DNA of 24,446 nt from a virus (taxonomy: Duplodnaviria > Caudoviricetes): the IMG/VR virus record IMGVR_UViG_3300047564_000143, positions 1-24,446 of that record; one strand, given 5' to 3'. How positions within the stretch are numbered: the stretch's first letter is position 1; each line of letters begins with the position of its first letter. The notes beneath the pieces were generated by a model. The model ran no database searches and was not told the origin of the DNA. It worked only from the letters and a program-made list of their open reading frames with translations. A program made the translations under genes and the position numbers. This document shows, in pieces, positions 14 to 22,395 of this stretch.

Positions 14-613
14 GTGAACATTCACAACCTATTTCCTACCGCATTGGGTATGTTCGACCTCGGGCGTGACTTCACCGAGACAGAAATTGCGTTCATCAAG
101 AACCAAGAAAAGCGCAATAACATGGGCAATACCACAAGCGTCGATAACACGATCCTAAAGAGCCCTGAACTTAAAGGGGTCAAGGACTTTATCGAGGCGT
201 CTGTTGCCAACTACTTCAAGGCCGTCTACGCCCCCAAGCACGAGACTACCCTGCGGATTACGCAGTCCTGGTGCAATTACACCGAGCCGGGGCAGTTCCA
301 CCATAAACACGCTCACCCTAATTCATTTATCAGTGGTGTCTTTTACCCCCAGGCCGACAAAGAGACAGACAAGATCTATTTCTACCGTGACGGGTATCAG
401 CAACTAAAGACCCCTACAGAAGACTTCAACCCGTACAACTCTGAGTCTTGGTGGATGGAAGCCTACACAGGCCGATTGTTCATTTTCCCGTCGCACCTGA
501 CGCATATGGTCGAGACCGTAGAGGGTAAACAGACCCGCATCAGTCTGTCGTTTAACACCTTCCCTATTGGCAACTTTGGGCAAGACGAATCATTGACGGG
601 GCTGCACCTGTGA
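14..613 (+). CDS. 2OG-Fe(II) oxygenase, TIGR02466/2OG-FeII_Oxy_5-like phage family
   Basis: GTG start. Motifs LFPT near the N-terminus, SWCN...HHKHAHPNSFISGVFY, FPSHLTHMV and RISLSFN fit a double-stranded beta-helix with HxH...H metal ligands and an RxS 2OG-binding motif. Confidence 0.85.
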   Translation: MNIHNLFPTALGMFDLGRDFTETEIAFIKNQEKRNNMGNTTSVDNTILKSPELKGVKDFIEASVANYFKAVYAPKHETTLRITQSWCNYTEPGQFHHKHAHPNSFISGVFYPQADKETDKIYFYRDGYQQLKTPTEDFNPYNSESWWMEAYTGRLFIFPSHLTHMVETVEGKQTRISLSFNTFPIGNFGQDESLTGLHL

Positions 614-3041: not shown

Positions 3042-3617
3042 ATGACAGCACTCTCCAACAATCTGTCTGACTACATCATGTACCTAGAGAACGTGGTGCC
3101 TGAGCAGCTAATTAGCGACATTCTTGCCGAGTACGATACAGACGAAGATTGGGAAGACTCAAAGATTGGTGTCGATGGACAGGTCATGACGCAGGTTCGT
3201 GGTGCCAAAATCAAGAGCTTGTCTCGGGTAGAAAGCATCCAGAAGAACGAGGCGGTGCGAAAAGAGATAGACGCTCAGTTATTTAGGTGTGTTGAGGCTG
3301 GGCTGCTGGCTTATACAAAACAGTTTCCTACCTGTGTGGTGGAAAAAGACACTGGCTACGACCTACTTAAGTACGAAACCGGCACTGGATACCGCAAACA
3401 CGTGGATAACTTTCTGGGGTTTCAGCGAGCGCTGTCATGTTCTATAGTGCTAAACGATGGCTTTGAAGGCGGTGAGTTTGAGTTCTTTAATGGTGAGGTT
3501 TCCTACAAACTAGCTAAGGGAAGTATGTTGTTATTTCCTAGTTCGTTTCAGTATCCTCATCAAGTAAATCCCGTTACCTCTGGAACGAGATACTCAATTG
3601 TTACTTGGTTTAACTAA
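3042..3617 (+). CDS. 2OG-Fe(II) oxygenase, prolyl-4-hydroxylase-like
   Basis: HxD (KHVDN), LNDGFEGGEF, FPSSFQYPHQVNPV and RYSIVTW motifs. Paralogous in motifs to 610-1182. Confidence 0.9.
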   Translation: MTALSNNLSDYIMYLENVVPEQLISDILAEYDTDEDWEDSKIGVDGQVMTQVRGAKIKSLSRVESIQKNEAVRKEIDAQLFRCVEAGLLAYTKQFPTCVVEKDTGYDLLKYETGTGYRKHVDNFLGFQRALSCSIVLNDGFEGGEFEFFNGEVSYKLAKGSMLLFPSSFQYPHQVNPVTSGTRYSIVTWFN

Positions 3618-8120: not shown

Positions 8121-9356
8121 ATGTACGACATGAAACCTATGGCGGAATCCCTAGCCTCTCAGGGCAGATACGGGGACTCCATGCTTGTTCACATGAACCC
8201 CGTTGAGGTTGCTGGCCTAAGGGCTGCTGCCCAAAAGATGGGCGGAGATCTCACCACCAATCCCCGAACAGGACAACCAGAAGCTTTCTTACCCTTCCTT
8301 ATCGGTATGGGTTTACAAGGCCTTGGGATGTCTGCTCTAGGTGCCGGTATTGCTACCGGACTTGGAACAGCGGTAGTGACCAAAGACATTGGTCAAGGCC
8401 TTATGGCAGGCCTAGGAGCCTATGGCGGTGCTGGTATAGGGGAAGGATTAGGGGCAGCTTCTTCAGCCGCTAATGTTGCTCAGGCTGCTCCAACAGCAAG
8501 TGCGGATCTTTTGGCTGGTGCTAGCCAATCAACCGCAGTCCCAGGCTCTATTGGTGCTAGTATGACCCCCACAGCCGCACCGGCAAGCTTTGCTCCTATT
8601 CCTGGTGGAGCAACTCCAATGCCAATGGATGTCATGACCGGAGCAGGTGATTTATCGATGGCTCAGGTTGGTGGAACTTCTGTTCCTGGAACTCCTGTTG
8701 GGTTTACACAACCAGTTCCCCCACCTAGTTCTCCATCAATGTTTGCTGAACCTCTAGCGGCAGGCCGAGATATAGCCCTAGCCCCTCCAAGCCAAGGATC
8801 ATTGGCTGGTCTTGACGCCGTTACTTCTACCGGTCCCACCGGAGAGGCGGCTAGGGGAGCTTTCATGCAAAAAGTTGGCGGTGGCTCTGGATTGTTAACC
8901 AAGACCGCTTACGGGATTGCTCCTTATGCTCTTGAGAAAGCATTTGAACAACCAGATTTCAATGCTCCAGAAGATAACTCTCTGATCCGTCCTTATGACT
9001 ATGATCCGACTACCCGCCGGTTCACTGCTCGGGAACCCTACAAAGCACCCGGACCTGAGTACATGGCTAAGGGTGGATTAGCTGGTCTGACTGGCTACAA
9101 GGAAGGAAACATCCTCCGAGGCCAGGGAGACGGGATGAGTGATGAAATCAAGGCAAGCATTGATGGTGAACAGGATGTTCTCCTATCTGATGGAGAGTAT
9201 GTCATTCCTGCTGATGCGGTAGCCATGCTTGGCAATGGATCGACTGATGCAGGAGCGAACAGGCTAGATGCCATGATTGCTCGTCTTAGGACACAGAAAT
9301 ACGGACGCAACAAACAGCCTCCAGAGATGAAGGCGGAAAGTGTTATGCCTGCATGA
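8121..9356 (+). CDS. Putative internal virion / DNA ejection protein
   Basis: N-terminal GRYGDSMLVHMNP.EV...TTNPRTGQPEAF, a Gly/Ala hydrophobic segment, a Pro/Ala low-complexity linker and a C-terminal GDGMSD..LSDGEYVIPADAV domain. Confidence 0.6.
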   Translation: MYDMKPMAESLASQGRYGDSMLVHMNPVEVAGLRAAAQKMGGDLTTNPRTGQPEAFLPFLIGMGLQGLGMSALGAGIATGLGTAVVTKDIGQGLMAGLGAYGGAGIGEGLGAASSAANVAQAAPTASADLLAGASQSTAVPGSIGASMTPTAAPASFAPIPGGATPMPMDVMTGAGDLSMAQVGGTSVPGTPVGFTQPVPPPSSPSMFAEPLAAGRDIALAPPSQGSLAGLDAVTSTGPTGEAARGAFMQKVGGGSGLLTKTAYGIAPYALEKAFEQPDFNAPEDNSLIRPYDYDPTTRRFTAREPYKAPGPEYMAKGGLAGLTGYKEGNILRGQGDGMSDEIKASIDGEQDVLLSDGEYVIPADAVAMLGNGSTDAGANRLDAMIARLRTQKYGRNKQPPEMKAESVMPA

Positions 9357-11013: not shown

Positions 11014-12510
11014 ATGAACCTTATTGAAATTTCTGAACAGTTAAAGGATGTTCCTGACCAGTATCTGGTTAGTGAAGTCCAGAACCCCACAGGTTCTTAT
11101 CCCGCCTATCTGGTGGTGTCTGAACTGACCCGCCGGAAACGGATGCGGGAGGGGGCTTTAAAAGAAAAACCTGAGACTAGCGTCACAGAAGACTTGATAG
11201 GTATTGCCGCCACTCCTGAAGCGGCTGATTCCACCTTGGGATCTGCCAAGCAGATGATGGCTCAGGCTCCTCAAATGGCTCCTCAGATGCCTGCTCAATT
11301 GGCGGGACAGATGCCTCAGATGCCCCAAATGATGTCTGGTGGTGGGTTAGTTGCCTTTGAGAAGGGTGGCCCTATCCGGGCATTCGATGGAATGTTTACT
11401 GGGGATTACACGCAACCAACTTTTGAAGATGAATTAGAGGCCTATCGTCCAAAAGGATTGTCCCGTATTTTGGGGGGTCCAGAAGGCATTGGCGCTGGAG
11501 ATGTTCGGTTTCGTCTTTCTCAGTTAGGATATACAAATCAAGATATCGCCAACATGGATCCTGCCATGCAACGAATGATCGTTGACAAGGCTTTGCCTAC
11601 GGGCGTTACACCCATGGCTCCTGCTGTTGCGGCTCCTGTCGCTGCTGCACCTAAACCTGCTCCTAGTGCCGCTCCGGGTGTTACTCCTAGTGCTGCTCCT
11701 GCCCCTGCTCCCACCGGCATTAGAGCGGCGGCTCCTCAGTTGCCTATTGATTTGCAAGAGTTATTGAACTCTGCAAAAGGTCAAACAGGGATTCCTTCTA
11801 CTCAAGATGTACAAGCTGCTAGAACAAAAGCAACTTCTGAGTTTGATGAACGTTTTCCCTTCAGACAAAAAGAGATCCTTGAGAAAAGGATTGCTGAAAG
11901 AACAGAAGAACTTCAGCGGGACAAGAAGATGAGCTTCAATGATGCTCTGCTTGCCGCAGGAGCGGCTGTTCTGTCTGCTCCAGGCGGCGGTACCAAGTGG
12001 ATGGGTGAAGGCCTTAAGGCGTTTAACCAGACCATGATTGAAGGCAAGAAGGATATGCGGAAGGCTCAACAGCTTATTGAGCAGTCTGAGATGGATCTTA
12101 TGCAGGCAGAAAGTCTTCGGGATCAAGGCAGGTTTGCTGCTGCTGACCGGGCGGAAGAAAAAGCGTTTACACGGGCAGAGAAGGCAAGACAGTTTGCTCA
12201 GAGTGATGCTGCTATTGGTTTACAAGCGTATAAAGCACGGGCTGATGCGCTTGAATCAGAATCTAAGGCTGGTTACTACGATGCCGCAGCAAGAACTGCT
12301 GGTATTGCTAAAGTGAAACCCGCTGAACCTCTTACAAGTATTGAGGTGATGATGGAGAAGCAAAGAATCAAAGAAGCCAATCCCAAAGCAACTGATGCAC
12401 AAATTGAACAGTTTCTTAAGCAGATGTATGGGGATAGATATGTTGCTGTACCAACCATACCCCCATTGGTTAGAGGTACTGGAACAACTGGCGCAACTCT
12501 TCCTCAATAA
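11014..12510 (+). CDS. Putative internal virion/ejection protein
   Basis: Helical protein with PQM and Ala/Pro low-complexity linkers. Lies between the ejection-like gene and the giant gene. Confidence 0.55.
   Translation: MNLIEISEQLKDVPDQYLVSEVQNPTGSYPAYLVVSELTRRKRMREGALKEKPETSVTEDLIGIAATPEAADSTLGSAKQMMAQAPQMAPQMPAQLAGQMPQMPQMMSGGGLVAFEKGGPIRAFDGMFTGDYTQPTFEDELEAYRPKGLSRILGGPEGIGAGDVRFRLSQLGYTNQDIANMDPAMQRMIVDKALPTGVTPMAPAVAAPVAAAPKPAPSAAPGVTPSAAPAPAPTGIRAAAPQLPIDLQELLNSAKGQTGIPSTQDVQAARTKATSEFDERFPFRQKEILEKRIAERTEELQRDKKMSFNDALLAAGAAVLSAPGGGTKWMGEGLKAFNQTMIEGKKDMRKAQQLIEQSEMDLMQAESLRDQGRFAAADRAEEKAFTRAEKARQFAQSDAAIGLQAYKARADALESESKAGYYDAAARTAGIAKVKPAEPLTSIEVMMEKQRIKEANPKATDAQIEQFLKQMYGDRYVAVPTIPPLVRGTGTTGATLPQ
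11257..11713 (+). repeat. Low-complexity coding repeats (PQM-rich and AAP/PSAAP-rich)
   Basis: MAQAPQMAPQMPAQLAGQMPQMPQMM (about 11257-11334) and APAVAAPVAAAPKPAPSAAPGVTPSAAPAPAP (about 11615-11713). Confidence 0.7.
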
Positions 12511-12513
12511 GTT

Positions 12514-15500
12514 ATGGCTTATCAAATCACCCTGCCTGATGGGTCAATCGGCCTAATCGATGATTCAGTTCCTCGTAATCGGGCTATGGAAGCAGCCCAA
12601 GCGGCTTATCCAGATGCCTTCCCTGGTATTGGAGAACAGCTTCTAGGTGCCCCAGGAGAGCTTCTAAAGGGTCTTGGAAGAGGGATTGTTGATCCAGTTA
12701 CAGGTCTAGCTTCTACCGCCTATACAGGTCTTAGAGCGGCAGGGGTTGAGATGGCCCCGTTTGCAGAGACTGGGGTAGGTAAAGGACTTGCAGGCGTTCA
12801 GGAGTATCTCGCTCCTGACTACGGGACGGTTTCTGAGTTTGCTGGTGCGGTGGGTGGACTGGGTTCTTTTTTAATTCCCGGCACCTTAATGGCAAAAGGA
12901 CTGGGAAGAGCCGCCACTCTAGGTGGCATGGCTACCGGTCTGGGTGCAGAAGAAGCCAGAAGCCGGGTAGAACAGGCCAGAGCAGAAGGAACCGATGTTT
13001 CAACGGGCCAAGAGTTTGCTGCTCAGTTAGGCGGTACAGCAATCGGTCTGACTGAACTTGCTCCTATTGAGCGTTTAACTGGGCCATTACAAGCAATCCT
13101 GCGTGGGGTGAAGAAGTCTGACGCCGATATGATTGCTCCCGGACTGTTTAACAGTGCCAAGAGGATGGTTGAGACCGGCGGTATCGAAGGTCTTCAAGAG
13201 GGTATGGCGAATGTCGCTCAGGATCTTCTTGCCAAAGGTATATATAACCCAGAACTGGACATTGGTGAATCTGCTCTAGGTGATGCGGCAATGGGTGCCT
13301 CTGTGGGTGCCTTTGCTCAAGGGGTTATTGAACTCGTCACCAAAGGAAAGAGAAAGACTCTCTATGACAACCTTAAAGCCGAGGAAGATGCGAAGACCAG
13401 AACCGCTGAAGCCGAAAAGGCAAGACTGGCTGAAGAGGCGGAGCGAAAGAAAACTCTTGAAAACTTTGGTATTGAAGGACAACCCCTCCTTCTAGCGGCA
13501 CCTCAGGCACAGGTCACCCCCAGCAGGGAAGAGAAGTCTGCTCTTGATAAATACGGCGTAGAAGAAAAAGAACTCTTTGAGCCTTTTGGAACTTTTAGTC
13601 GGGATGAACTAGATCCTACTGTCGTTAAGGAACTAGACAAGCGCCGCAAAGAGGCAGGGCGTCCCAAGACAGAAAGCTTCACCATTCAAGACATCGCAGA
13701 TACCGGTGTTTACAGGGCGGAGTTAGATCGTCTGCTGGCTCAAAGGTCAGGGTTTACAGGTCAAGTTACATTCAAACCAGCAGAAATTGTTGGTTTAGCG
13801 CAACAAAAGAACATCGATACCTCCACCCAAGGGTTTTCAGACTTTGTGTCTCGGGTTACAGGCATCAAGCCGATGCCCAACCTTACCGGTGCAAACGCCC
13901 TAAGAGGTTTAAACGATGTAGAACTCTTTGCTGTCCGGGAGGCTTTAAACAAGCTACCGGTCTATGAAAAGTTAAAGATTCTACCGACCGGTAAGTCTGC
14001 AAAGATCTTTGATGAAAAGCAGGCCAATAAGACCCTGACATCGATTACCAAAACCTTGAGCGATAAGTTAGGCGCTGAAGGTCTTGGAGAAACAACTATT
14101 CTTCAAGAGATTGGTGATTTCTCTGGCTTAGGGGATGTAAACGACCAGAGAAGTCTGCTTGAAAAGTACATCACCGAAGGAAAGCTGGAGCGTACCGCTA
14201 CCCCCGCCTATGGGGTATTTGATGCCAAGGGCAATCAGGTCACTGTCATTAAAGGCAAGGACGGACAACTTACCCAGGCGGAAAGGGTACAAGCCCAGCG
14301 TAAAGCCCAAGAGATTGGTGGTACGGTCAAGGGCGTAACTATCAACAACATCAAACTTGCCAGCCCTGTAAACCGTTTAATCGGCGGTGCAGACATCCGA
14401 GAGGGTGTCTACGAGGATAACAAGATCCAGGGATATGACATCACCACCGAAACCGGTGAGGTGATTGGCAAGGCGGCAAATAACAGACAAGCAGAGATTG
14501 CGGCACAGAGAGTACGGGCTGTCCGGGAACAACGCCAACAACAGCTTGTAGATGCTAAACAGAAGATTGAACAATCTATTGCCGCCAGAGAACAAGAACT
14601 GGCAGACCTAGAGGCTTTAGGTCAGAAGAACTCTGAACAGTATTCAAAGCTACAAGGTTCTGTTGCATCGCAAAAGAGAAACCTGGGTAAGGTTGAACAG
14701 AGTATTCAAGAGTTTGGTAAAGGGGTGACGGTTAATCCTCGTCATGCCAAACAGAAAAGAACTGGTTACACCTTATTCCAAGGTAATAAACCTGTAGGCA
14801 CCTATAACTCTCGCCAAGAGGCTATGGATGCCTCTGTGGTTGGTCTACCTACCGATAAGCTAGAGGCGATCCTAGACGCTTTCCCAACCTTAAAAGCTGA
14901 TGCATTACCAGGGAAAGATCGTGCAGACATACAAAGGATTCAACAGGTTGCCTCACAAGAACTGGCGGCACGAACGGGACAGGTTCCTAGTGGCGTTGGG
15001 GTTACGGTGGAAGGTGACATTACAGCGGCGGAGGAGCGTTTAGCGCTGCAAGGGATCTTCAGCCCCAGGATTAAGGAACGTGTAAACGAGCTAGATAAAA
15101 AGCTTCGAGCTGCGCTTGATAGCTTGGGCCTAAAGGATGTTCGTTTAAATATCGTTGGGGCAATCAAGGGTGAACTCGGCGTTGCTGATGGAGCCTATGC
15201 CGCTCGTCTTATCAAGATTGCTCTGGATGCAGAGAACCCTATGCGGGTTCTTCGCCATGAGTCTATTCATGCCCTTAAAGAGCTTGGTGCGTTTACACCT
15301 GACCAGTGGCGGGTGCTTGAGAACAAGGCTAAGTCTGAGTGGATTCAGAAGTACAACATCATGGGGCGGTATCAGGGTCTAGATCCTGCATCGATGATCG
15401 AAGAAGCTATTGCTGATGCGTTCTCTGATTTCAGCCAGACTAAACCTCCTGCTGGGTTGATTCGTAACATCTTTGACAAGATCAAGGCGTTCTTTACCCG

Positions 15501-18500
15501 TTTGGATAATGCGTTTAAAGGGTTTGGATTCCAAACCTCTGATGATGTGTTTACACAAGCAGAGTTAGGCCAGCTTATACCTGGCATGGGAGAGAGAGCC
15601 GCCCAGGTTCAAGGACTACAAGCACAGCGGGTTACCGCAGAAGAACCGGAAAGATATTCTCTACGTCCCAGGAAGCTAAAGAGTGGGGAGATCGTTGGGT
15701 CTCCTCCTAATGCTAGGACAGAGCCTCAAAGGACTGCTCTTGTCCGCCAGATGACAGATCTTCTTCGTTCCCCGTTCACCATGCTGGACGAGTCCAAGAA
15801 CTGGTACGAGGACAGTGGAGCGGCTATCAGAAGTATTACCCGAGGTGATCCTGAGTTAACTGAGCGGGTAGTCCGTTTAATGGCCCTGTACTCCCAGGCC
15901 AATGGGGTAGGCGGTAATACCACCGCAACCATCAAGTCCATCTATCAGCTAGCAACAGGTCAACCCACCGCATTTGCTGGTCGGTTCCCTAACACCACCG
16001 CAGAAAGGATTCCCGCAATTCTTGCCGCACCAACGATGGATGATTCGTTGCCGGGTGTTGATGACAAGCTGATGAACTTCTATCGCAATCTGCATGATGC
16101 GACCTATCAAACCGACACCTTCGATGATGCGTCAACCATTGACCGCTGGATGATGCGTCTGTTTGGCTATCCTCACACCGAGGATCAGGATGTGGGCGGT
16201 GCTAGTGGTTTATCTAACACACAATATACCTATGCCAAGGATTTGGTACGCAGGATCTCTGATGCTCATTTCCGCCGTTCTGGTGAGCGTCTGTTGCCCC
16301 GTCAGATCCAGGCGGCTCTCTGGACATACGTCAAGAATAAGACTGACTATGACTCCCTACCGGATGATAAGAAGGCTTCCTTTGAGCCTTCTATCATTGA
16401 TTTCTCTGACTACATCACCAGAGCGACTGCAAATATCACCTGGGAGACTCGTCCTTCCACCAGCATTAATCTTTTACCAGGGATTCACAAAGCTCCTAGG
16501 AATGAGCAAGAAGCGTTTAACCGGGCTGTCCGGGAGATCTTTGTTGACGAAGACGGCAACGATCTGATATTCCAGCTTCTTGGCGGAGAGCAGTTGTACT
16601 CCAGCCAGTTCTCTATGGGTGCCTATGAGAACCAGATCGCTCCTAACATCATCACCAAGCTTGTCCTGCGTAAGGATGACAATAAATATCTAGGAGATGC
16701 GGCTAATAAATACGCATCCATCGTTGGTTATGTGACCAGACAGGATGCTGTTCCTTGGTACAGAGCAGATCCTACCGCTGGCGGTAAGTTTGCTTCTACT
16801 GGATTCAGGGTTACCCCAAGCGTTGAGAATGTTGATCCTGCCTTTGAGCAAAGTCTCTTTGACCATTTAAACACGGCAATGCCTGGTGTTGGGTTCACCC
16901 GGATCGACAACGCTTTTGACTTTGTGAATTTCCGAGGCGAGGATGGCAAACCATTCTTCATGGCGGATAAGAAGTACAAAGAAAAACTACAAGAAGCATT
17001 GGAATCATTCCCTGGGGATGTAGAATTCAATGTTGAGCCTTTCCGTGCGGAGAGTGCTTACATATCCAATAACTGGAAGGAGAACGCAAATGGCGAAGGT
17101 TACCTTTCTGCCTTTAGCCCCGGAGAACTCGCCGATATACAAAACACCCTTGATGGTTGGCGCTCGTCTTACGACACAATCGCCGACCAGTTCGGGCGAG
17201 ACTTCGGATGGAACAAATTCTCCCTTAGATCTCCAGAACCTGCCGGTGGATCCAGCACTGGAAGCGGCCTTGTACTCGGAGAGTCTCAGCCGGGGGCAAA
17301 GTCCTTCACAGGAACCCACTACGGCAAGCAACGAGTAGATGTTCTATCCGGTTCTTTCTATGGAACCGGCATCAAGGGAGCAGAAGCCGCTCGTCTGGCA
17401 CAGTCCAGAGATTTCCGAATCAAGAAGCGGGTCTATTTCTATGTTCCCTTTGAAACAGGAACAATGCCCAGGCCTGAAGCCGGTCTGGGTAACTTTGTCT
17501 ACAAGCAGACCCTAAACAACATTCTCCCGCCAGGAGAGATCATGTCTCGTTTTTACAACGAGGCGGGTCAGGATGCGAATGAGTTTGAGTCTGCGATTGT
17601 TGATGCAGGCTACGACGGATACGCCGTTCCCAGCATGGGGATGATGGTTGTCTTAAACCATGACGTGCCGGTTGAATTCCTGGGTACCAGAGACACCATA
17701 AGAAATCTTACCCCGACAGAAAAGTTTTCTCTTCGTACCACCGACACTCCAGAGTTTAAACAGTGGTTCGGAAGGTCAACTATCGTTGATGCCCAGGGTC
17801 GTCCAAAGGTCATGTACCACGGAACGGCTCGGGATATTACCGAGTTTAAACCTAAGCGGTCTAGTTCGATCTTTGTTACGCCAGATCCAGAGTTTGCTGA
17901 TGATTTTGGTATCCAGTCTGAAGATTGGATGGTTGACCATGCAACAGAAATTCTAAGCGAACAAGAAATTAAGAAGGCACTTGCCGAGGGCATTACCAAA
18001 ATGACTCCTGGCTTGTCCAAAGAAAAACGAATTGCAATGCTTGCGGAGATGTTGAAGTTTCCGCTAAAGAGTATTGTCAAAGATCAAGATGCAACAGAGA
18101 TTAGAGACGCTCTAAAAAGAAGGATGCCTGCTAGACGAAATATTATGCCGGTCTATGTTCGGGCAGAGAATCCTTTTGACTTTGAAAACCCAGAGCACAT
18201 CAGAACATTAAAGCAGTACGTTGGGATGACCCCAGATACTGTCGTTGCCATCAAGAATGGTAGCTGGGACATTATTGAAGAAGATTCAATTCAAGACGCT
18301 ATCAAAGAAGCTGGATTTGATAGTTTCTACATGAAAGAAGGTGGAAGAAAGAACCTGGCGGTATACAAACCAGACCAGATTAAGTCTGTCACCGGCAACA
18401 TTGGGACATATGGTCAGAGAGAGCCGACCCTTGAAGAAGCCAAGCAGTTTGGCTTAACCATTGAAGAAGCTAAAGCTGCTCAGAAGCGGGGTGATATTCG

Positions 18501-21500
18501 CTACTCCCTCCGTGCAACAAACACCCCCGAGTTTAAACAGTGGTTTAAAAAGAGTCCTGTGGTCGATGCTGTCGGCAAGCCACAAATGATGTTCCATGGA
18601 ACGGCGCTAGATATTGAAGAGTTCATCCCCGGACAGGCTAATGCTATCTATGTAAGCCCTGATCCAGAGTTTGCTGGAACTTTTGCCAAGTACAGTAGTG
18701 ACAGAGAGGTTATAAAGCTAGGAGAAAACCTAGACAAAGATTTAGATGCAAAGAGGTTAATTCTTGAACCTGTCATTGACAATGCAATGGCGGTTGGTGA
18801 TTTAACAAACGCTAACCTCCCAGAGCATCGCAGAATGGCAAAGGCTGGGTTTATCAGGAATCTAGACCAGTACACCAAAGAATACTGGATGAATGAATTT
18901 CTAGATATGCCCATGGCGGATGCCGCACGAACAATGGGCGTTGGGCCAGCATTAAAGCAGGCGTTGGCAAATCAATTGACCACAGGGCGCAATGTTATGC
19001 CTCTGTATGTCAATCCTCAAAAACCTTTTGATTTTGAAAATAAAAGTCATGTAAAGCAGGTTTCTGATCTTGTATTCAAGTATGACCCCGATACTTACGA
19101 TCAAAATCCATCCAATCAAAAGGCTTTGATTGACGATCTAAGAAATGGGGATTGGAGGCTGATAGAAGAGCCAGTGATCCAAGAAGCTATTAAAGAACTT
19201 GGATTTGATGCGTTCTATGTCAAAGAGCAAGGACTCTACAAAAATCTTGGTCTTTACAGACCCAATCAAATCAAATCTGCAATTGGCAACGAGGGAACAT
19301 TTAGTTCAAAGACGGGTGATATCCGTTACTCGCTTCGCTCAAATACCCCTCCGCCAGAAAACATTCAAAGATTTTTTGGTCAGGCAGAACGTTTAGAGAC
19401 CACCCCAGAAATTACTGAACTCAGGGATGCATGGATTGGTGGTGTATCTGATGCTGGTTTAAACGAGGCGGCTTACTACCTTGACCAGGTTCCTGGCGGC
19501 AAAGAGTACACAAAAAATGTTCAAAAGTTAGCCAGACAAATTCTTGGTGATCGCATCAAAGGATTCCGTTTGATGTCCAAGGAAGAGTTGGAAAACATTC
19601 AGGCGGGTGATCTTGATTACTATGCGGCATTTTCACTCAACCCAAACACCGCTTTATCGTTTGCAAACTTTGTTAATAACTCAAAGATTGCACCTCAGGA
19701 TCTGGTGGTTGTAGAAGCAGACATCAATCCCGGTGATATCCACATGATCGGCAAGGAAGGGGAGTCAGAGATTGTTGCTGACATGAGTCGCCTTGCTGGA
19801 GACCAGAGAAAGATCACCGAGTTTGCACAACCGGTTAGGTTCTCACTTCGTCAGCAGGCTGCACAGACCCTAGGCCAAGGCTATTTAAACACTGTAGAGC
19901 GCACCACAACCCCCAGGGTGGAGCAGGGGTTGAAGGATCGGATTGCTGAAGCAATCAGTCCAACGAAGGTCTCTAAGTTTCGGCAGATGTTTATCAACAA
20001 GTATGAAGCTATTGAGGTCTACTCTCGGGAGTTTGCCAAGAAGTTTGGCAATGCCGCTCTTTTGGCGGATACCTCTGCTATTTCCGCAGCGTTGATGTCT
20101 GATCGGGCAGCAGGTGTTGCTGCTGAGTCGTTTAAATCAGGCATCCCGGTCTATAACAAGGGCTACACCTACGTCGATAACATGAATGGCAAGGTCAAGG
20201 GACTGATGGATATCCTGATGCCCTTGGCCCAGAGGCAAGATCCGTTTGTCTATCGGATGTTCCAAGACTACGCCGGTAGAAGAAGGGGTGTTCGGCTAGA
20301 CGCCCAAGGGAAGGTCACTCCGTTTACATCTCAAGAACTAGCGGAGATCCCGAAAATCGAGAAAGCTTTCCCTGAATTTAAACAGGTGTTTGAAGACTAC
20401 CAGCGGTACAACGAAGGCTTAGTACGGTACATGAGAGACACCGGGGTGATTGATGCTAAGGCGGCTCAGGAATGGATGAAGTACGGAGACTACATTCCTT
20501 TCTACCGCCAGTTGGATGGGGAAAGAACTGTCGGCCCCAGCATCTTCTCGGCTATCTCTGGGGTCAAGGCACCCAAGAAACTTAAGGGTGGAGACGCTCC
20601 CCTTGGAGAATTCTTAGAGACTGTGATCCGTAATTCTCGGGCGGCAATCGAAGCCGGGATGAGGAACGTCGCCGCAAACCGGGTGGTTAACAACTTCCAG
20701 CGTTTAAACAGCCCATCAGGGGTGGGCAACCTGGTGGAAAAGGTAACGGAAAAAGAAAGAAACCTTCCTGATGTGGTGACTGTCCGGGAGAACGGTAAGG
20801 ATGCCTTCTATCAGGTAGCCGATCCCCTCTTGGTTCAATCCTTACAAGCTTTAAACATCCCTCAGATACCGGGATTGGATATCCTTGCCGCTCCCGCTTC
20901 TTTCCTGCGGGAGATGGTTACCCGAGACCCAGCCTTTATCGGAGCCTCAGTCCTTCGAGAATCCCTATCCGCATGGATCACCACCGGTCAAAGAATGACC
21001 CCCATCGTGGATGGTGTGAAGCAGTTTGGAAAGATTCTGGCAAATGCTTCCCCTGAGGTGATAGCCCTCCGCAGGGCCGGTATCGGTTCTGGCTATGAGT
21101 TCAAGGGAGATGTTCAAGCCACCTCTGGAGAGTTTGCCAAACAGTTAAAACAGAAGGCCGGGGATATGTCTGCCGCTCAAAGGGCGGTTAAACCTATCTC
21201 TTGGATGTGGGATTCGTTAGATAAAGCTTCTACCGCTGCTGACTTATCCACAAGGGCGGAAGTGTTTAAACGGGTCATGGAAGAGACCGGCAATGAGGCT
21301 GAGGCTGTATACCAGGCAATGGAGGTTATTAACTTCTCCCGCAAAGGATCTAGCCCGATCATTCAGATCTTTGCCGCCATCATTCCGTTCTTAAACGCCC
21401 GGATACAGGGCTTAGATCTGCTCTACAGGGCCGGTTTTGGGCGTCTGGCTAGTGCGAATAAGGTTACCCAACACAAGGCCTTTATGCTTCGTTCCTTGGC

Positions 21501-22395
21501 CCTTCTGGGCACCACGGCGATGTACTACGCCTTGGTACAGGATGATGATGAATGGCAGAGAGCAGACCAAGAAACCAGGGATAACTACTGGATCATCGGC
21601 GGGTTTAAGTTCCCGATCCCGTTTGAACTGGGTGTTATGTTCAAGGTTATCCCCGAGCGGATCATGGCCTACACCATGGGAGACGATACGGGTAAAGAGG
21701 TTCGGGAATCGATTGCCAGACAGGTCATGGGTACCTTGTCATTTAACCCGATCCCGCAGGCGGTTCTGCCTTTGATTGAGGCTTCCGCAAACTATTCATT
21801 CTTCCTTCAGCGAGACATTGTGGGCATGGGCAAGAGAGACCTTGCTCCTGAGTTCCAGACCTCTGAAGGAACTTCTAAGATCGCTATCGAACTTGGTCAG
21901 ACATTAGGGATTTCCCCAATGAAGATTGACTATGTTCTACGGGGCTACACAGGATCGATGGGAACCTATGCCATCACCGCCATGGATTCCATCATCCGGT
22001 CTGAGGATGACGCTACCAAGGCCACCTGGAGACTGGATCAGATACCCGTGTTGAAACGCTTTATGATCTCGGATCTCGGAGCCGGTACGGTCAATGACTA
22101 CTATGACCTGAAGGACAGGGTTGACGAGGTAGTCAGGACATCCAACCAGCTTGAAAGAACCGGTAATGTGAAGGCTCTGTCTGAGTACCTCAAAGAAAAC
22201 GGTCAGGTTCTTGGGATTAAGGACTATGTCCGAGACCTAGATAAGGACATGAAGTCTATCCGGGAATCCAAGATGGCTATCAATATGTCTCGGATGGATC
22301 CAGACCAGAAACGAGATGCTTTGGATGCCTTGCGTAGGGCAGAGATATCTCTAACCGAGAGGATCGGCACTCTTCGCAAGAGTCTTGGAGTCTAA
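12514..22395 (+). CDS. Large polyvalent protein (3293 aa): ejection-type N-terminus, zincin metallopeptidase, HhH-glycosylase-like and ADP-ribosyltransferase-like modules, LPD38-like C-terminus
   Basis: Single uninterrupted ORF. HESIH...EE motif, LPGVDDK...TIDRW...QAALW, two FKQWF..S..VD..G.P..M[YF]HGT...QIKS..GN.G domains, an R-S-ExE domain and a C-terminal RDNYW...PIPFELG...PER motif. Confidence 0.9.
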   Translation: MAYQITLPDGSIGLIDDSVPRNRAMEAAQAAYPDAFPGIGEQLLGAPGELLKGLGRGIVDPVTGLASTAYTGLRAAGVEMAPFAETGVGKGLAGVQEYLAPDYGTVSEFAGAVGGLGSFLIPGTLMAKGLGRAATLGGMATGLGAEEARSRVEQARAEGTDVSTGQEFAAQLGGTAIGLTELAPIERLTGPLQAILRGVKKSDADMIAPGLFNSAKRMVETGGIEGLQEGMANVAQDLLAKGIYNPELDIGESALGDAAMGASVGAFAQGVIELVTKGKRKTLYDNLKAEEDAKTRTAEAEKARLAEEAERKKTLENFGIEGQPLLLAAPQAQVTPSREEKSALDKYGVEEKELFEPFGTFSRDELDPTVVKELDKRRKEAGRPKTESFTIQDIADTGVYRAELDRLLAQRSGFTGQVTFKPAEIVGLAQQKNIDTSTQGFSDFVSRVTGIKPMPNLTGANALRGLNDVELFAVREALNKLPVYEKLKILPTGKSAKIFDEKQANKTLTSITKTLSDKLGAEGLGETTILQEIGDFSGLGDVNDQRSLLEKYITEGKLERTATPAYGVFDAKGNQVTVIKGKDGQLTQAERVQAQRKAQEIGGTVKGVTINNIKLASPVNRLIGGADIREGVYEDNKIQGYDITTETGEVIGKAANNRQAEIAAQRVRAVREQRQQQLVDAKQKIEQSIAAREQELADLEALGQKNSEQYSKLQGSVASQKRNLGKVEQSIQEFGKGVTVNPRHAKQKRTGYTLFQGNKPVGTYNSRQEAMDASVVGLPTDKLEAILDAFPTLKADALPGKDRADIQRIQQVASQELAARTGQVPSGVGVTVEGDITAAEERLALQGIFSPRIKERVNELDKKLRAALDSLGLKDVRLNIVGAIKGELGVADGAYAARLIKIALDAENPMRVLRHESIHALKELGAFTPDQWRVLENKAKSEWIQKYNIMGRYQGLDPASMIEEAIADAFSDFSQTKPPAGLIRNIFDKIKAFFTRLDNAFKGFGFQTSDDVFTQAELGQLIPGMGERAAQVQGLQAQRVTAEEPERYSLRPRKLKSGEIVGSPPNARTEPQRTALVRQMTDLLRSPFTMLDESKNWYEDSGAAIRSITRGDPELTERVVRLMALYSQANGVGGNTTATIKSIYQLATGQPTAFAGRFPNTTAERIPAILAAPTMDDSLPGVDDKLMNFYRNLHDATYQTDTFDDASTIDRWMMRLFGYPHTEDQDVGGASGLSNTQYTYAKDLVRRISDAHFRRSGERLLPRQIQAALWTYVKNKTDYDSLPDDKKASFEPSIIDFSDYITRATANITWETRPSTSINLLPGIHKAPRNEQEAFNRAVREIFVDEDGNDLIFQLLGGEQLYSSQFSMGAYENQIAPNIITKLVLRKDDNKYLGDAANKYASIVGYVTRQDAVPWYRADPTAGGKFASTGFRVTPSVENVDPAFEQSLFDHLNTAMPGVGFTRIDNAFDFVNFRGEDGKPFFMADKKYKEKLQEALESFPGDVEFNVEPFRAESAYISNNWKENANGEGYLSAFSPGELADIQNTLDGWRSSYDTIADQFGRDFGWNKFSLRSPEPAGGSSTGSGLVLGESQPGAKSFTGTHYGKQRVDVLSGSFYGTGIKGAEAARLAQSRDFRIKKRVYFYVPFETGTMPRPEAGLGNFVYKQTLNNILPPGEIMSRFYNEAGQDANEFESAIVDAGYDGYAVPSMGMMVVLNHDVPVEFLGTRDTIRNLTPTEKFSLRTTDTPEFKQWFGRSTIVDAQGRPKVMYHGTARDITEFKPKRSSSIFVTPDPEFADDFGIQSEDWMVDHATEILSEQEIKKALAEGITKMTPGLSKEKRIAMLAEMLKFPLKSIVKDQDATEIRDALKRRMPARRNIMPVYVRAENPFDFENPEHIRTLKQYVGMTPDTVVAIKNGSWDIIEEDSIQDAIKEAGFDSFYMKEGGRKNLAVYKPDQIKSVTGNIGTYGQREPTLEEAKQFGLTIEEAKAAQKRGDIRYSLRATNTPEFKQWFKKSPVVDAVGKPQMMFHGTALDIEEFIPGQANAIYVSPDPEFAGTFAKYSSDREVIKLGENLDKDLDAKRLILEPVIDNAMAVGDLTNANLPEHRRMAKAGFIRNLDQYTKEYWMNEFLDMPMADAARTMGVGPALKQALANQLTTGRNVMPLYVNPQKPFDFENKSHVKQVSDLVFKYDPDTYDQNPSNQKALIDDLRNGDWRLIEEPVIQEAIKELGFDAFYVKEQGLYKNLGLYRPNQIKSAIGNEGTFSSKTGDIRYSLRSNTPPPENIQRFFGQAERLETTPEITELRDAWIGGVSDAGLNEAAYYLDQVPGGKEYTKNVQKLARQILGDRIKGFRLMSKEELENIQAGDLDYYAAFSLNPNTALSFANFVNNSKIAPQDLVVVEADINPGDIHMIGKEGESEIVADMSRLAGDQRKITEFAQPVRFSLRQQAAQTLGQGYLNTVERTTTPRVEQGLKDRIAEAISPTKVSKFRQMFINKYEAIEVYSREFAKKFGNAALLADTSAISAALMSDRAAGVAAESFKSGIPVYNKGYTYVDNMNGKVKGLMDILMPLAQRQDPFVYRMFQDYAGRRRGVRLDAQGKVTPFTSQELAEIPKIEKAFPEFKQVFEDYQRYNEGLVRYMRDTGVIDAKAAQEWMKYGDYIPFYRQLDGERTVGPSIFSAISGVKAPKKLKGGDAPLGEFLETVIRNSRAAIEAGMRNVAANRVVNNFQRLNSPSGVGNLVEKVTEKERNLPDVVTVRENGKDAFYQVADPLLVQSLQALNIPQIPGLDILAAPASFLREMVTRDPAFIGASVLRESLSAWITTGQRMTPIVDGVKQFGKILANASPEVIALRRAGIGSGYEFKGDVQATSGEFAKQLKQKAGDMSAAQRAVKPISWMWDSLDKASTAADLSTRAEVFKRVMEETGNEAEAVYQAMEVINFSRKGSSPIIQIFAAIIPFLNARIQGLDLLYRAGFGRLASANKVTQHKAFMLRSLALLGTTAMYYALVQDDDEWQRADQETRDNYWIIGGFKFPIPFELGVMFKVIPERIMAYTMGDDTGKEVRESIARQVMGTLSFNPIPQAVLPLIEASANYSFFLQRDIVGMGKRDLAPEFQTSEGTSKIAIELGQTLGISPMKIDYVLRGYTGSMGTYAITAMDSIIRSEDDATKATWRLDQIPVLKRFMISDLGAGTVNDYYDLKDRVDEVVRTSNQLERTGNVKALSEYLKENGQVLGIKDYVRDLDKDMKSIRESKMAINMSRMDPDQKRDALDALRRAEISLTERIGTLRKSLGV
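15100..15560 (+). other. Zincin-like metallopeptidase domain within the giant protein
   Basis: G.Y strand (ADGAY), HExxH = HESIH at 15256-15270 (H915) and downstream EEAIAD at 15400. Boundaries are approximate. Confidence 0.7.
15652..19851 (+). repeat. Six dispersed copies of the peptide motif [RK][YF]SLR delimiting five modules
   Basis: RYSLR 15652-15666, KFSLR 17215-17229, KFSLR 17722-17736, RYSLR 18499-18513, RYSLR 19324-19338, RFSLR 19837-19851. Confidence 0.9.
17737..19323 (+). repeat. Tandem duplicated ART-PolyVal-like ADP-ribosyltransferase domains
   Basis: Both copies share TPEFKQWF, M[YF]HGT, PDPEFA, RN.MP.YV....PFDFEN, IQ.AIKE.GFD.FY.KE.G..KNL..Y.P.QIKS..GN.GT and GDIRYSLR. Identical DNA stretches are GAGTTTAAACAGTGGTT (17752, 18529) and GATCCAGAGTTTGCTG (17884, 18661). 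Confidence 0.85.
21500..22395 (+). other. LPD38-like C-terminal domain of the giant protein
   Basis: INFSRKG...IPFLNARIQG upstream, then WQRA....RDNYW...FPIPFELG..FK..PER and SPMKIDY.LRGYTG.MG. Boundaries are approximate. Confidence 0.7.

What the first reader, a model, noticed from the sequence alone, without database searches (positions are those of the whole stretch)
15100..19851. Cassette-type effector polyprotein: metallopeptidase followed by five modules each bounded by [RK][YF]SLR
Seen: in the 3293-aa ORF the pentapeptide [RK][YF]SLR occurs six times (aa 1047, 1568, 1737, 1996, 2271, 2442), exactly at the boundaries of recognisable domains. This gives modules of about 516, 164, 254, 270 and 166 aa. 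The six copies use different synonymous codons (AGATATTCTCTACGT, AAATTCTCCCTTAGA, AAGTTTTCTCTTCGT, CGCTACTCCCTCCGT, CGTTACTCGCTTCGC, AGGTTCTCACTTCGT), so conservation is at the protein level. A HExxH+E zincin domain lies just before the first copy. Known: phage/plasmid polyvalent proteins combine metallopeptidase, ART and LPD domains and are proposed to be delivered with the DNA. Inference: the motif is the recognition or cleavage site of the cis-encoded peptidase, which releases individual effectors in the host, analogous to MARTX toxin autoprocessing. It would also make the modules interchangeable between phages.
Basis: partly seen in the sequence, partly recalled or inferred. Interest (0 to 1): 0.92.

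Follow-up and report, generated by a model that had tools for sequence, protein, structure and literature searches.

The report
Lineage-specific junction tags in phage polyprotein
A giant protein that an uncultured phage likely injects into its host carries the same five-residue tag at six joints, relatives swap enzyme modules at this tag, and the tag differs between lineages of the protein's own zinc-protease domain, so it is likely a self-cleavage signal, though no cut has been measured.

Summary
Confirmed. [RK][YF]SLR occurs six times in the 3293-aa ORF against 0.008 expected. The ORF is a phage-type polyvalent protein: zincin peptidase, cargo modules, LPD38 arm.

In 120 homologues all 567 motif hits lie between peptidase and arm. 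Relatives swap modules there: 215 of 327 switch points fall within 5 residues, against 3.9% by chance. Conservation is at protein level (Ser codons TCN 29, AGY 21), and the coding 15-mer also serves as crossover microhomology.

The tag changes with the lineage. ART modules end in an R[YF]S-type word in 101 of 109 cases in this clade, and in an LxQ word in 8 of 8 in a second clade.

Self-cleavage by the cis peptidase is the best reading (about 0.6) but is inferred. The tag tracks the C-terminal arm as well as the peptidase, is missing at some joints, and no cut is shown. Peptidase processing was proposed in 2017; my searches found no junction motif in print. This scan noted similar tags on other DNA several times.

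The parts
12514..22395 (+). 3293-aa phage-type polyvalent protein, likely a virion ejection protein
   Evidence: follows virion structural, GNAT and three unannotated genes
12514..15060 (+). N-terminal arm, conserved scaffold without the motif
15061..15582 (+). Zincin-like metallopeptidase domain, aa ~850-1023; H915, E916, H919 and E963/E964 invariant in 61 aligned sequences
   Evidence: pLDDT mostly >90; zincins at the top, best Z 6.5
15652..15666 (+). Junction motif 1, RYSLR, about 24 aa after the peptidase
   Evidence: pLDDT <50
15667..17214 (+). Module 1, 516 aa; DUF7178 in its N-terminal part, rest unassigned
   Evidence: E 1.5e-6, 28.7 bits, cut-off 27
17215..17229 (+). Junction motif 2, KFSLR
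   Evidence: pLDDT about 32
17230..17721 (+). Module 2, 164 aa; compact predicted domain, no Pfam family, weak hint of an ART-like fold
   Evidence: one row, 9biw_B, Z 4.5
17722..17736 (+). Junction motif 3, KFSLR
   Evidence: pLDDT <50
17737..18498 (+). Module 3, ART-PolyVal ADP-ribosyltransferase, 254 aa
   Evidence: (E 1.4e-20)
18499..18513 (+). Junction motif 4, RYSLR
18514..19323 (+). Module 4, ART-PolyVal, 270 aa
   Evidence: E 1.4e-14
19324..19338 (+). Junction motif 5, RYSLR
19339..19836 (+). Module 5, 166 aa; no family hit; GFR...AF[ST]L...ESE pattern recalls R-S-E-type ARTs (label recalled, not from a call)
   Evidence: pattern kept in 7 of 7 distinct copies
19837..19851 (+). Junction motif 6, RFSLR, before the C-terminal arm
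19852..22395 (+). Conserved C-terminal arm with LPD38 (nt 21544-22053), without the motif

Best explanation
The ORF is a phage polyvalent protein with a fixed scaffold (N arm, zincin domain, LPD38 arm) and a swappable cargo array, and the [RK][YF]S[LI][RK] tag at the joints is likely the site that the protein's own zinc peptidase recognises and cuts, which would free the cargo, probably after injection. Shown: the tag, its confinement to the cargo region, protein-level conservation, module exchange at the tag, short direct DNA repeats at module insertions, and a different tag in another peptidase lineage. Once selected at protein level, the 15 coding bases also act as in-frame microhomology, so a newly inserted module arrives with a tag on both sides.
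For: (1) All 567 hits in 120 homologues lie between peptidase and arm; none in 176,682 arm residues (129 distinct contexts). In 81 diverse representatives, 167 hits in the middle against 12.3 shuffled, and 3 in the arms. (2) 215 of 327 module-switch contexts lie within 5 aa of a motif, null 3.9%; with the motif masked, 2219 of 8522 pair edges, null 3.6%. (3) 41 different 15-mers in 50 contexts, Ser TCN 29 and AGY 21. (4) Four modelled copies sit in low-confidence linkers; flanks are poor in hydrophobic residues, 0.196 vs 0.288. (5) Catalytic HE kept in 157 of 157 clade A domains and 46 of 49 clade B proteins. (6) Lineage code: ART modules end S-type in 101 of 109 and Q-type in 0 of 109 in clade A, Q-type in 8 of 8 in clade B. 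In each clade a tag copy sits next to the peptidase on the cargo side: 85 of 146 in A (7% in N-arm windows), 31 of 46 in B (6.3 expected). Cultured Limnohabitans phage DC33 carries an ART, a module-2 homologue and a module that by eye resembles the DUF7178 type, each opened by a Q-type word. (7) A stand-alone ART ends at the motif position. (8) Three short LPD38 proteins lack peptidase, Pfam cargo and motif together. (9) Precedent for sequence-specific cutting by a zincin: PprI on DdrO (PMC4374696), second-ranked fold match.
Against: No cut is observed. I found no relative with a dead peptidase, so joint loss could not be tested. The motif is absent upstream of 25 of 49 module-2 homologues and at most ends of module type M3 (2 of 7 upstream, 3 of 7 downstream). 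One 2525-aa protein without HExxH delimits ART modules with a Gly-Gly word, so tags can exist without a cis zincin. Several cultured LPD38 proteins with a peptidase show no evident repeated tag. Recombination itself copies one variant to both ends of a module, and within-protein concordance is modest (0.577 vs 0.515, 50 of 2000 permutations). N4 vRNAP, ArdC and TraC1 are reported as packaged or transferred uncut (PMC5512222), and ArdC E229A keeps its function (PMC7213743). The clade patterns were written after seeing the data.
Confidence: 0.6

Rival explanations
1. The tag is a binding label and is not cut: a scaffold part or portal/core protein would grip it to pack, order or thread cargo modules during packaging or ejection.
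For: Variants track the C arm as well as the peptidase. Gly-Gly tags mark joints in a protein without HExxH and recur in neighbouring genes. Related proteins are reported uncut. An ART-like domain is resolved within a 1071-residue chain of the cyanophage A4 pre-ejectosome (9k3a_B, Z 7.6, rmsd 3.4, 133 aligned).
Against: A tag copy sits next to the peptidase on the cargo side in both clades and switches side with the cargo. The general-base Glu is invariant. The arms, which must also be packed and ejected, carry no tag.
Confidence: 0.2
2. The tag is cut, but by a protease in trans: a phage head-maturation protease or a host protease.
For: Phage SPN3US gp245 cuts head proteins after A-X-E (PMC10052503). 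The window is a 24-kb fragment, so other phage genes are unseen.
Against: Only the cargo region of this ORF carries the exact motif among the window's listed ORFs. The tag differs between peptidase lineages that share cargo. SPN3US cleavages remove N-terminal propeptides.
Confidence: 0.11
3. The motif is only a recombination seam: a short repeat left by module shuffling, with no protein-level function.
For: Module insertions in close relatives are flanked by identical direct repeats of 10-17 nt at the motif.
Against: 41 different 15-mers in 50 contexts; Ser uses both TCN and AGY families. The peptide is kept in relatives from separate 50% clusters, and in 3 of 4 cargo-less proteins.
Confidence: 0.05
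4. The motif is a structural end-cap belonging to the cargo domains, chiefly the ART C-terminus.
For: Asp-Ile precedes many copies and is the conserved end of ART-PolyVal; D1994 forms a bridge in the model.
Against: Unrelated modules and the peptidase end in the same word. ART ends change with the scaffold. pLDDT is below 50 over most motif residues. A stand-alone ART stops there.
Confidence: 0.04

Closest known systems
Phage-type polyvalent proteins with zincin-like MPTase (Iyer et al. 2017, PMC5512222)
   Same: Large late-region protein joining MPTase, ART-PolyVal and LPD38; the paper proposes MPTase autoproteolysis into functional units and mentions possible cassette-like recombination for a kinase locus.
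   Different: In the parts read (abstract, section 3 parts 2, 4, 8, 9 of 14, word searches) no junction motif, cleavage site or lineage-specific tag is described; 'linker' has 0 occurrences. Its supplementary alignments were not seen.
phi24B gp47 (bioRxiv 10.64898/2026.04.10.717836)
   Same: 2811-aa LPD38 protein detected in virions by proteomics and proposed as an ejection protein.
   Different: The authors assign its metallopeptidase to peptidoglycan degradation; the passages read do not address processing of gp47.
N4 vRNAP (PMC13434306) and ArdC (PMC7213743)
   Same: Delivered proteins with an HExxH zincin domain.
   Different: Reported as packaged or transferred uncut (via PMC5512222); ArdC E229A is dispensable for its tested function; no cargo array or tag is described in the passages read.
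MARTX toxin autoprocessing (recalled, no call)
   Same: Cis protease, fixed delivery arms, swappable effectors freed at linker sites.
   Different: MARTX uses an inositol-hexakisphosphate-activated cysteine protease in eukaryotic cells; here a zincin in a phage protein, cleavage unproven, no homology claimed.
SPN3US prohead protease gp245 (PMC10052503)
   Same: Short-motif processing of phage head proteins.
   Different: Separate protease, A-X-E motif, removes N-terminal propeptides during head assembly.

Membership tests
Phage-type polyvalent proteins | Large protein joining disparate domains, including polyvalent-specific ones | tested here: met
   ART-PolyVal and LPD38 above Pfam cut-off; DUF7178
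Phage-type polyvalent proteins | Encoded among late virion genes | tested here: met
   Tail fibre, virion structural protein, holin and endolysin upstream on the same strand
Phage-type polyvalent proteins | Variable domain architecture between relatives | tested here: met
   447 segments, 31 clusters, 56 architecture strings in 120 proteins, some partial
Phage-type polyvalent proteins | Packaged in the virion and injected | not testable with these tools
   Inferred from context and from phi24B gp47 proteomics
Zincin-like MPTase | HExxH helix plus downstream Glu helix after a three-stranded sheet | tested here: met
   Invariant H915, E916, H919, E963, E964; model; top VIA rows are zincin-fold chains, best Z 6.5, rmsd 3.8, 126 aligned; Foldseek E >= 0.12
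Zincin-like MPTase | Proteolytic activity | not testable with these tools
   No assay
Self-processing effector polyprotein (MARTX-like working principle) | Conserved sites in linkers between effectors | tested here: met
Self-processing effector polyprotein (MARTX-like working principle) | Sites tied specifically to the cis protease | tested here: inconclusive
   Tag differs by lineage but tracks the C arm equally
Self-processing effector polyprotein (MARTX-like working principle) | Cleavage at the sites | not testable with these tools
   No assay
DNA-site cassette system (integron-like) | Nucleotide-level conserved recombination site | tested here: not met
   41 distinct 15-mers in 50 contexts; both Ser codon families

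The most novel reading that the evidence does not exclude
Phage polyvalent proteins run a lineage-specific protease-and-tag code. Each zincin lineage reads its own short tag (R[YF]SL here, LxQ, QFSR or FSR elsewhere), cargo domains are re-tagged when they move between lineages, and the tag's coding bases double as the crossover point. The protein is then a self-unpacking, self-shuffling cassette array for injected enzymes, and the peptidases form a family of small orthogonal site-specific proteases.
Probability: 0.45. Interest if true: 0.85.

Novelty: new variant of a known kind. Interest (0 to 1): 0.68.

Why it matters
Processing of polyvalent proteins by their own zincin was proposed in 2017, but I found no site or assay in the papers searched. 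This gives exact candidate sites, a catalytic mutant, a cross-lineage specificity test and culturable models with harmless hosts (Limnohabitans phage DC33, Caulobacter phage Jess A). It would explain how folded enzymes fused to an ejection scaffold reach separate targets, and how phages reshuffle early effectors in frame. The tag also gives exact module borders for annotating unknown cargo.

Tried and rejected
Complex prediction of peptidase (61-row alignment), junction peptide (51-row alignment) and Zn gave 'no answer', score 0.00, controls not folded; it counts neither way. AlphaFold2 of aa 850-1070 left the first motif undocked at pLDDT <50; uninformative about binding.

A k-mer breakpoint test was noisy (176 of 1586 within 5 aa vs 3.7%) because it caught allele changes; replaced. 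The ART tree (78 rows, quick search, long branches, some rows mislabelled by my pattern) showed no clustering of tail type but is too weak to rely on.

Sequence searches of solved structures found nothing for the peptidase profile, module 5 or modules 2-3. PHROGs gave nothing for modules 2 and 5. A viral scan with module 5 found no confirmed loci.

De novo 4-mer enrichment found no clear repeated tag in the 13 cultured LPD38/LPD39 phage proteins; candidate words beside their peptidases were seen by eye only. A DNA-level recombination site was rejected. Sequencing-read tools were not used. Literature searches that found no junction motif.
Full report
Observation. The ORF at 12514-22395 encodes 3293 aa. 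The expectation is 0.008, 20,000 shuffles gave at most two copies, and the most repeated pentamer of any comparable pattern reached at most four in 1,000 shuffles. HESIH lies at aa 915-919.

Context. The window is the whole record held. Upstream on the same strand lie a tail collar fibre, holin, endolysin, a virion structural protein and a weak GNAT, as expected for a phage late region. Pfam finds ART-PolyVal and LPD38 in the ORF. Per module it finds weak DUF7178 in module 1, ART-PolyVal in modules 3 and 4, and nothing in modules 2 and 5. The protein is therefore a phage-type polyvalent protein in the sense of Iyer et al. 2017 (PMC5512222; abstract, section 3 parts 2, 4, 8 and 9 of 14, and word searches read; supplementary files not seen). 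That paper proposes that the zincin MPTase processes such proteins, and notes that N4 vRNAP, ArdC and TraC1 are delivered uncut. A virion proteome lists an LPD38 protein as a candidate ejection protein (bioRxiv 10.64898/2026.04.10.717836, passages only, supplements closed).

The motif is confined to the cargo region. A search with the peptidase region found 450 proteins and returned the best 120. The slightly wider pattern [RK][YFW][SQ][LIVM][RK] hits 567 times, always between peptidase and C arm (173,380 aa), and never in 97,069 N-arm or 79,613 C-arm residues. These proteins are redundant: 129 distinct contexts. For diversity I took the best 150 of 1,944 representatives at 50% clustering. In the 81 of 151 proteins where both anchors could be placed, [RK][YF]S[LIVMF] occurs 167 times in the middle (shuffled mean 12.3, maximum 22) against 2 in N arms, 1 in C arms and 0 in the peptidase.

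Modules are exchanged at the motif. Cutting at the motif gives 447 segments in 31 clusters and 56 architecture strings, some from partial proteins. In 47 proteins, one per architecture among the 99 closest, I listed places where two proteins are near-identical on one side and unrelated on the other. Of 327 distinct contexts, 215 lie within 5 residues of a motif (null 3.9%) and 253 within 12 (null 8.7%). The contexts are not independent and the motif was unmasked. A masked BLAST version on 52 proteins gave 2219 of 8522 edges within 5 residues (null 3.6%). The remainder are mostly exchanges inside ART paralogues, further variants such as RYKLR, or motif-less joints.

Protein or DNA signal. Fifty motif contexts from 16 ORFs use 41 different 15-mers, and the Ser is TCN in 29 and AGY in 21, so selection acts on the peptide. 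Close relatives also show how modules move. An extra module in L002 is flanked by a 17-nt identical repeat over the motif, one in L027 by another 17-nt repeat, and one in L001 by a 10-nt repeat; the relative without the module has a single copy. The coding sequence thus serves as in-frame microhomology. This also means that some sharing of variants within a protein can come from recombination.

Structure. A model of aa 850-1070 (61 sequences) gives a confident domain with the HExxH and EE helices after a small sheet, and a disordered first motif. H915, E916, H919, E963 and E964 are invariant in that alignment. Foldseek gave only weak hits, led by IrrE/PprI. VIA ranked zincin-fold chains first (PPEP-2 Z 6.5, rmsd 3.8, 126 aligned; PprI Z 6.2). 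These scores are middling, but they agree with the motif. A model of aa 1550-2010 (29 sequences) shows two folded domains with motifs 2, 3 and most of 4 in segments below pLDDT 50. Its ART part matches PARP-like ARTs and a chain of the cyanophage A4 pre-ejectosome (PMC12002296, passages read, which do not mention an ART).

The tag changes with the lineage. ART modules from 32 viral loci end in different words depending on the peptidase: RYSL here, RKSL with KASL at other joints in one subclade, QFSR in L041/L046, LxQ in L051, and LRQI/MRDI in L049. A search with the L051 peptidase returned the best 120 of 828 proteins, 49 after dereplication (clade B). [RK][YF]S[LIVMF] is enriched in clade A (234 vs 44 shuffled) and not in B (9 vs 13); [LYF][FY]Q is enriched in B (120 vs 50) and not in A (167 vs 177). 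ART ends are S-type in 101 of 109 in A (8 other, none Q-type) and Q-type in 8 of 8 in B. A tag word follows the peptidase in 85 of 146 clade A proteins (7% of N-arm windows) and precedes it in 31 of 46 clade B proteins (6.3 expected), in each case on the cargo side. These patterns were written after seeing the data. Cultured Limnohabitans phage DC33 carries an ART, a homologue of module 2 (E 2e-35) and a module that by eye resembles the DUF7178 type, each opened by a Q-type word; Caulobacter phage Jess A bounds its ART with SLTQ and LLAQ; F116 gp60 uses AFSR and LFSR; a stand-alone ART of a Dickeya phage stops at the motif position.

Limits. Within clade A, aromatic and non-aromatic variants cluster on the peptidase tree (4 changes vs about 12) and on the C-arm tree (5 vs 12); 36 of 65 proteins were labelled and 29 mixed ones not counted. 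All 157 clade A domains keep HExxH, which argues for activity but leaves no natural dead control. The motif is upstream of only 24 of 49 module-2 homologues (44 downstream), at 17 of 18 ends on each side for the GP88 module, and at 2 and 3 of 7 for module type M3, so released units would sometimes be module pairs. A 2525-aa protein without HExxH separates ART modules by a Gly-Gly word. Of 13 cultured phage proteins fetched from 56 hits, 10 have HExxH or HExxxH and several of these show no evident repeated tag; the three short ones lack peptidase, Pfam cargo and motif. ArdC works without its catalytic Glu (PMC7213743, passages). The N4 vRNAP structure paper notes the HExxH domain and has no mention of proteolysis in the word search (PMC13434306, passages). 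Cleavage of crAss-like polyproteins by a zincin is also only proposed (bioRxiv 10.1101/2020.03.07.982082, passages).

Mechanism. I commit to self-processing (0.6). The protein is likely packed whole and ejected, the arms likely serve delivery, and the zincin likely cuts the tags to free the cargo and part the two arms; 3 of 4 cargo-less relatives keep one tag-like word between peptidase and C arm. PprI shows that such a fold can cut at a short defined sequence (PMC4374696, passages). The scissile bond and trigger are unknown. Rivals are an uncut binding label (0.2), a trans protease as in SPN3US (0.11; PMC10052503, passages), a pure recombination seam (0.05) and a structural cap (0.04).

Novelty. 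The family and the processing idea are known. My searches (PMC9503650 passages) found no junction motif or lineage code; the library lacks most subscription papers and the 2017 supplementary alignments may show the motif. Earlier notes of this scan describe other tags with the same reading on other DNA. They are unchecked and are not counted as support. Verdict: a real, well-supported feature, a new variant of a known kind, interest 0.68.

Noticed in passing
window 8121-9356 (aa 315) and 11014-12510 (aa 107, 115): A second short word, [MYF]xxGG (MAKGG, MSGGG, FEKGG), occurs in two upstream genes. ORFs of similar size in many related loci carry 2-4 copies, and it is rare in the polyvalent proteins (0.12 per 1000 aa).
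   Followed up: partly
L053:8076 onward (2525-aa ORF): A multi-module protein without HExxH whose ART and other modules are separated by a KAxGGxVxMAxGG-type repeat (9 matches to the short pattern).
   Followed up: partly
window 17737-19323 and homologues: ART paralogues also recombine internally at their conserved YHG and IKS/GNIGT blocks, swapping variable inserts.
   Followed up: partly
window 19339-19836: [quoted passage not shown] Not folded or confirmed.
   Followed up: no
window 14-613, 610-1182, 3042-3617: Three 2OG-Fe(II) oxygenase genes interspersed with tail genes.
   Followed up: no
PDB 9k3a_B: A chain of the cyanophage A4 pre-ejectosome matches the ART module (Z 7.6), while a word search of its paper finds no 'ADP-ribosyl'.
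   Followed up: partly
L072 (Limnohabitans phage DC33 record): The record is filed under Inoviridae although it is 39 kb and encodes a 3125-aa polyvalent protein; probably misclassified.
   Followed up: no
P0121: A 4460-aa protein with several near-identical copies of the peptidase domain.
   Followed up: no
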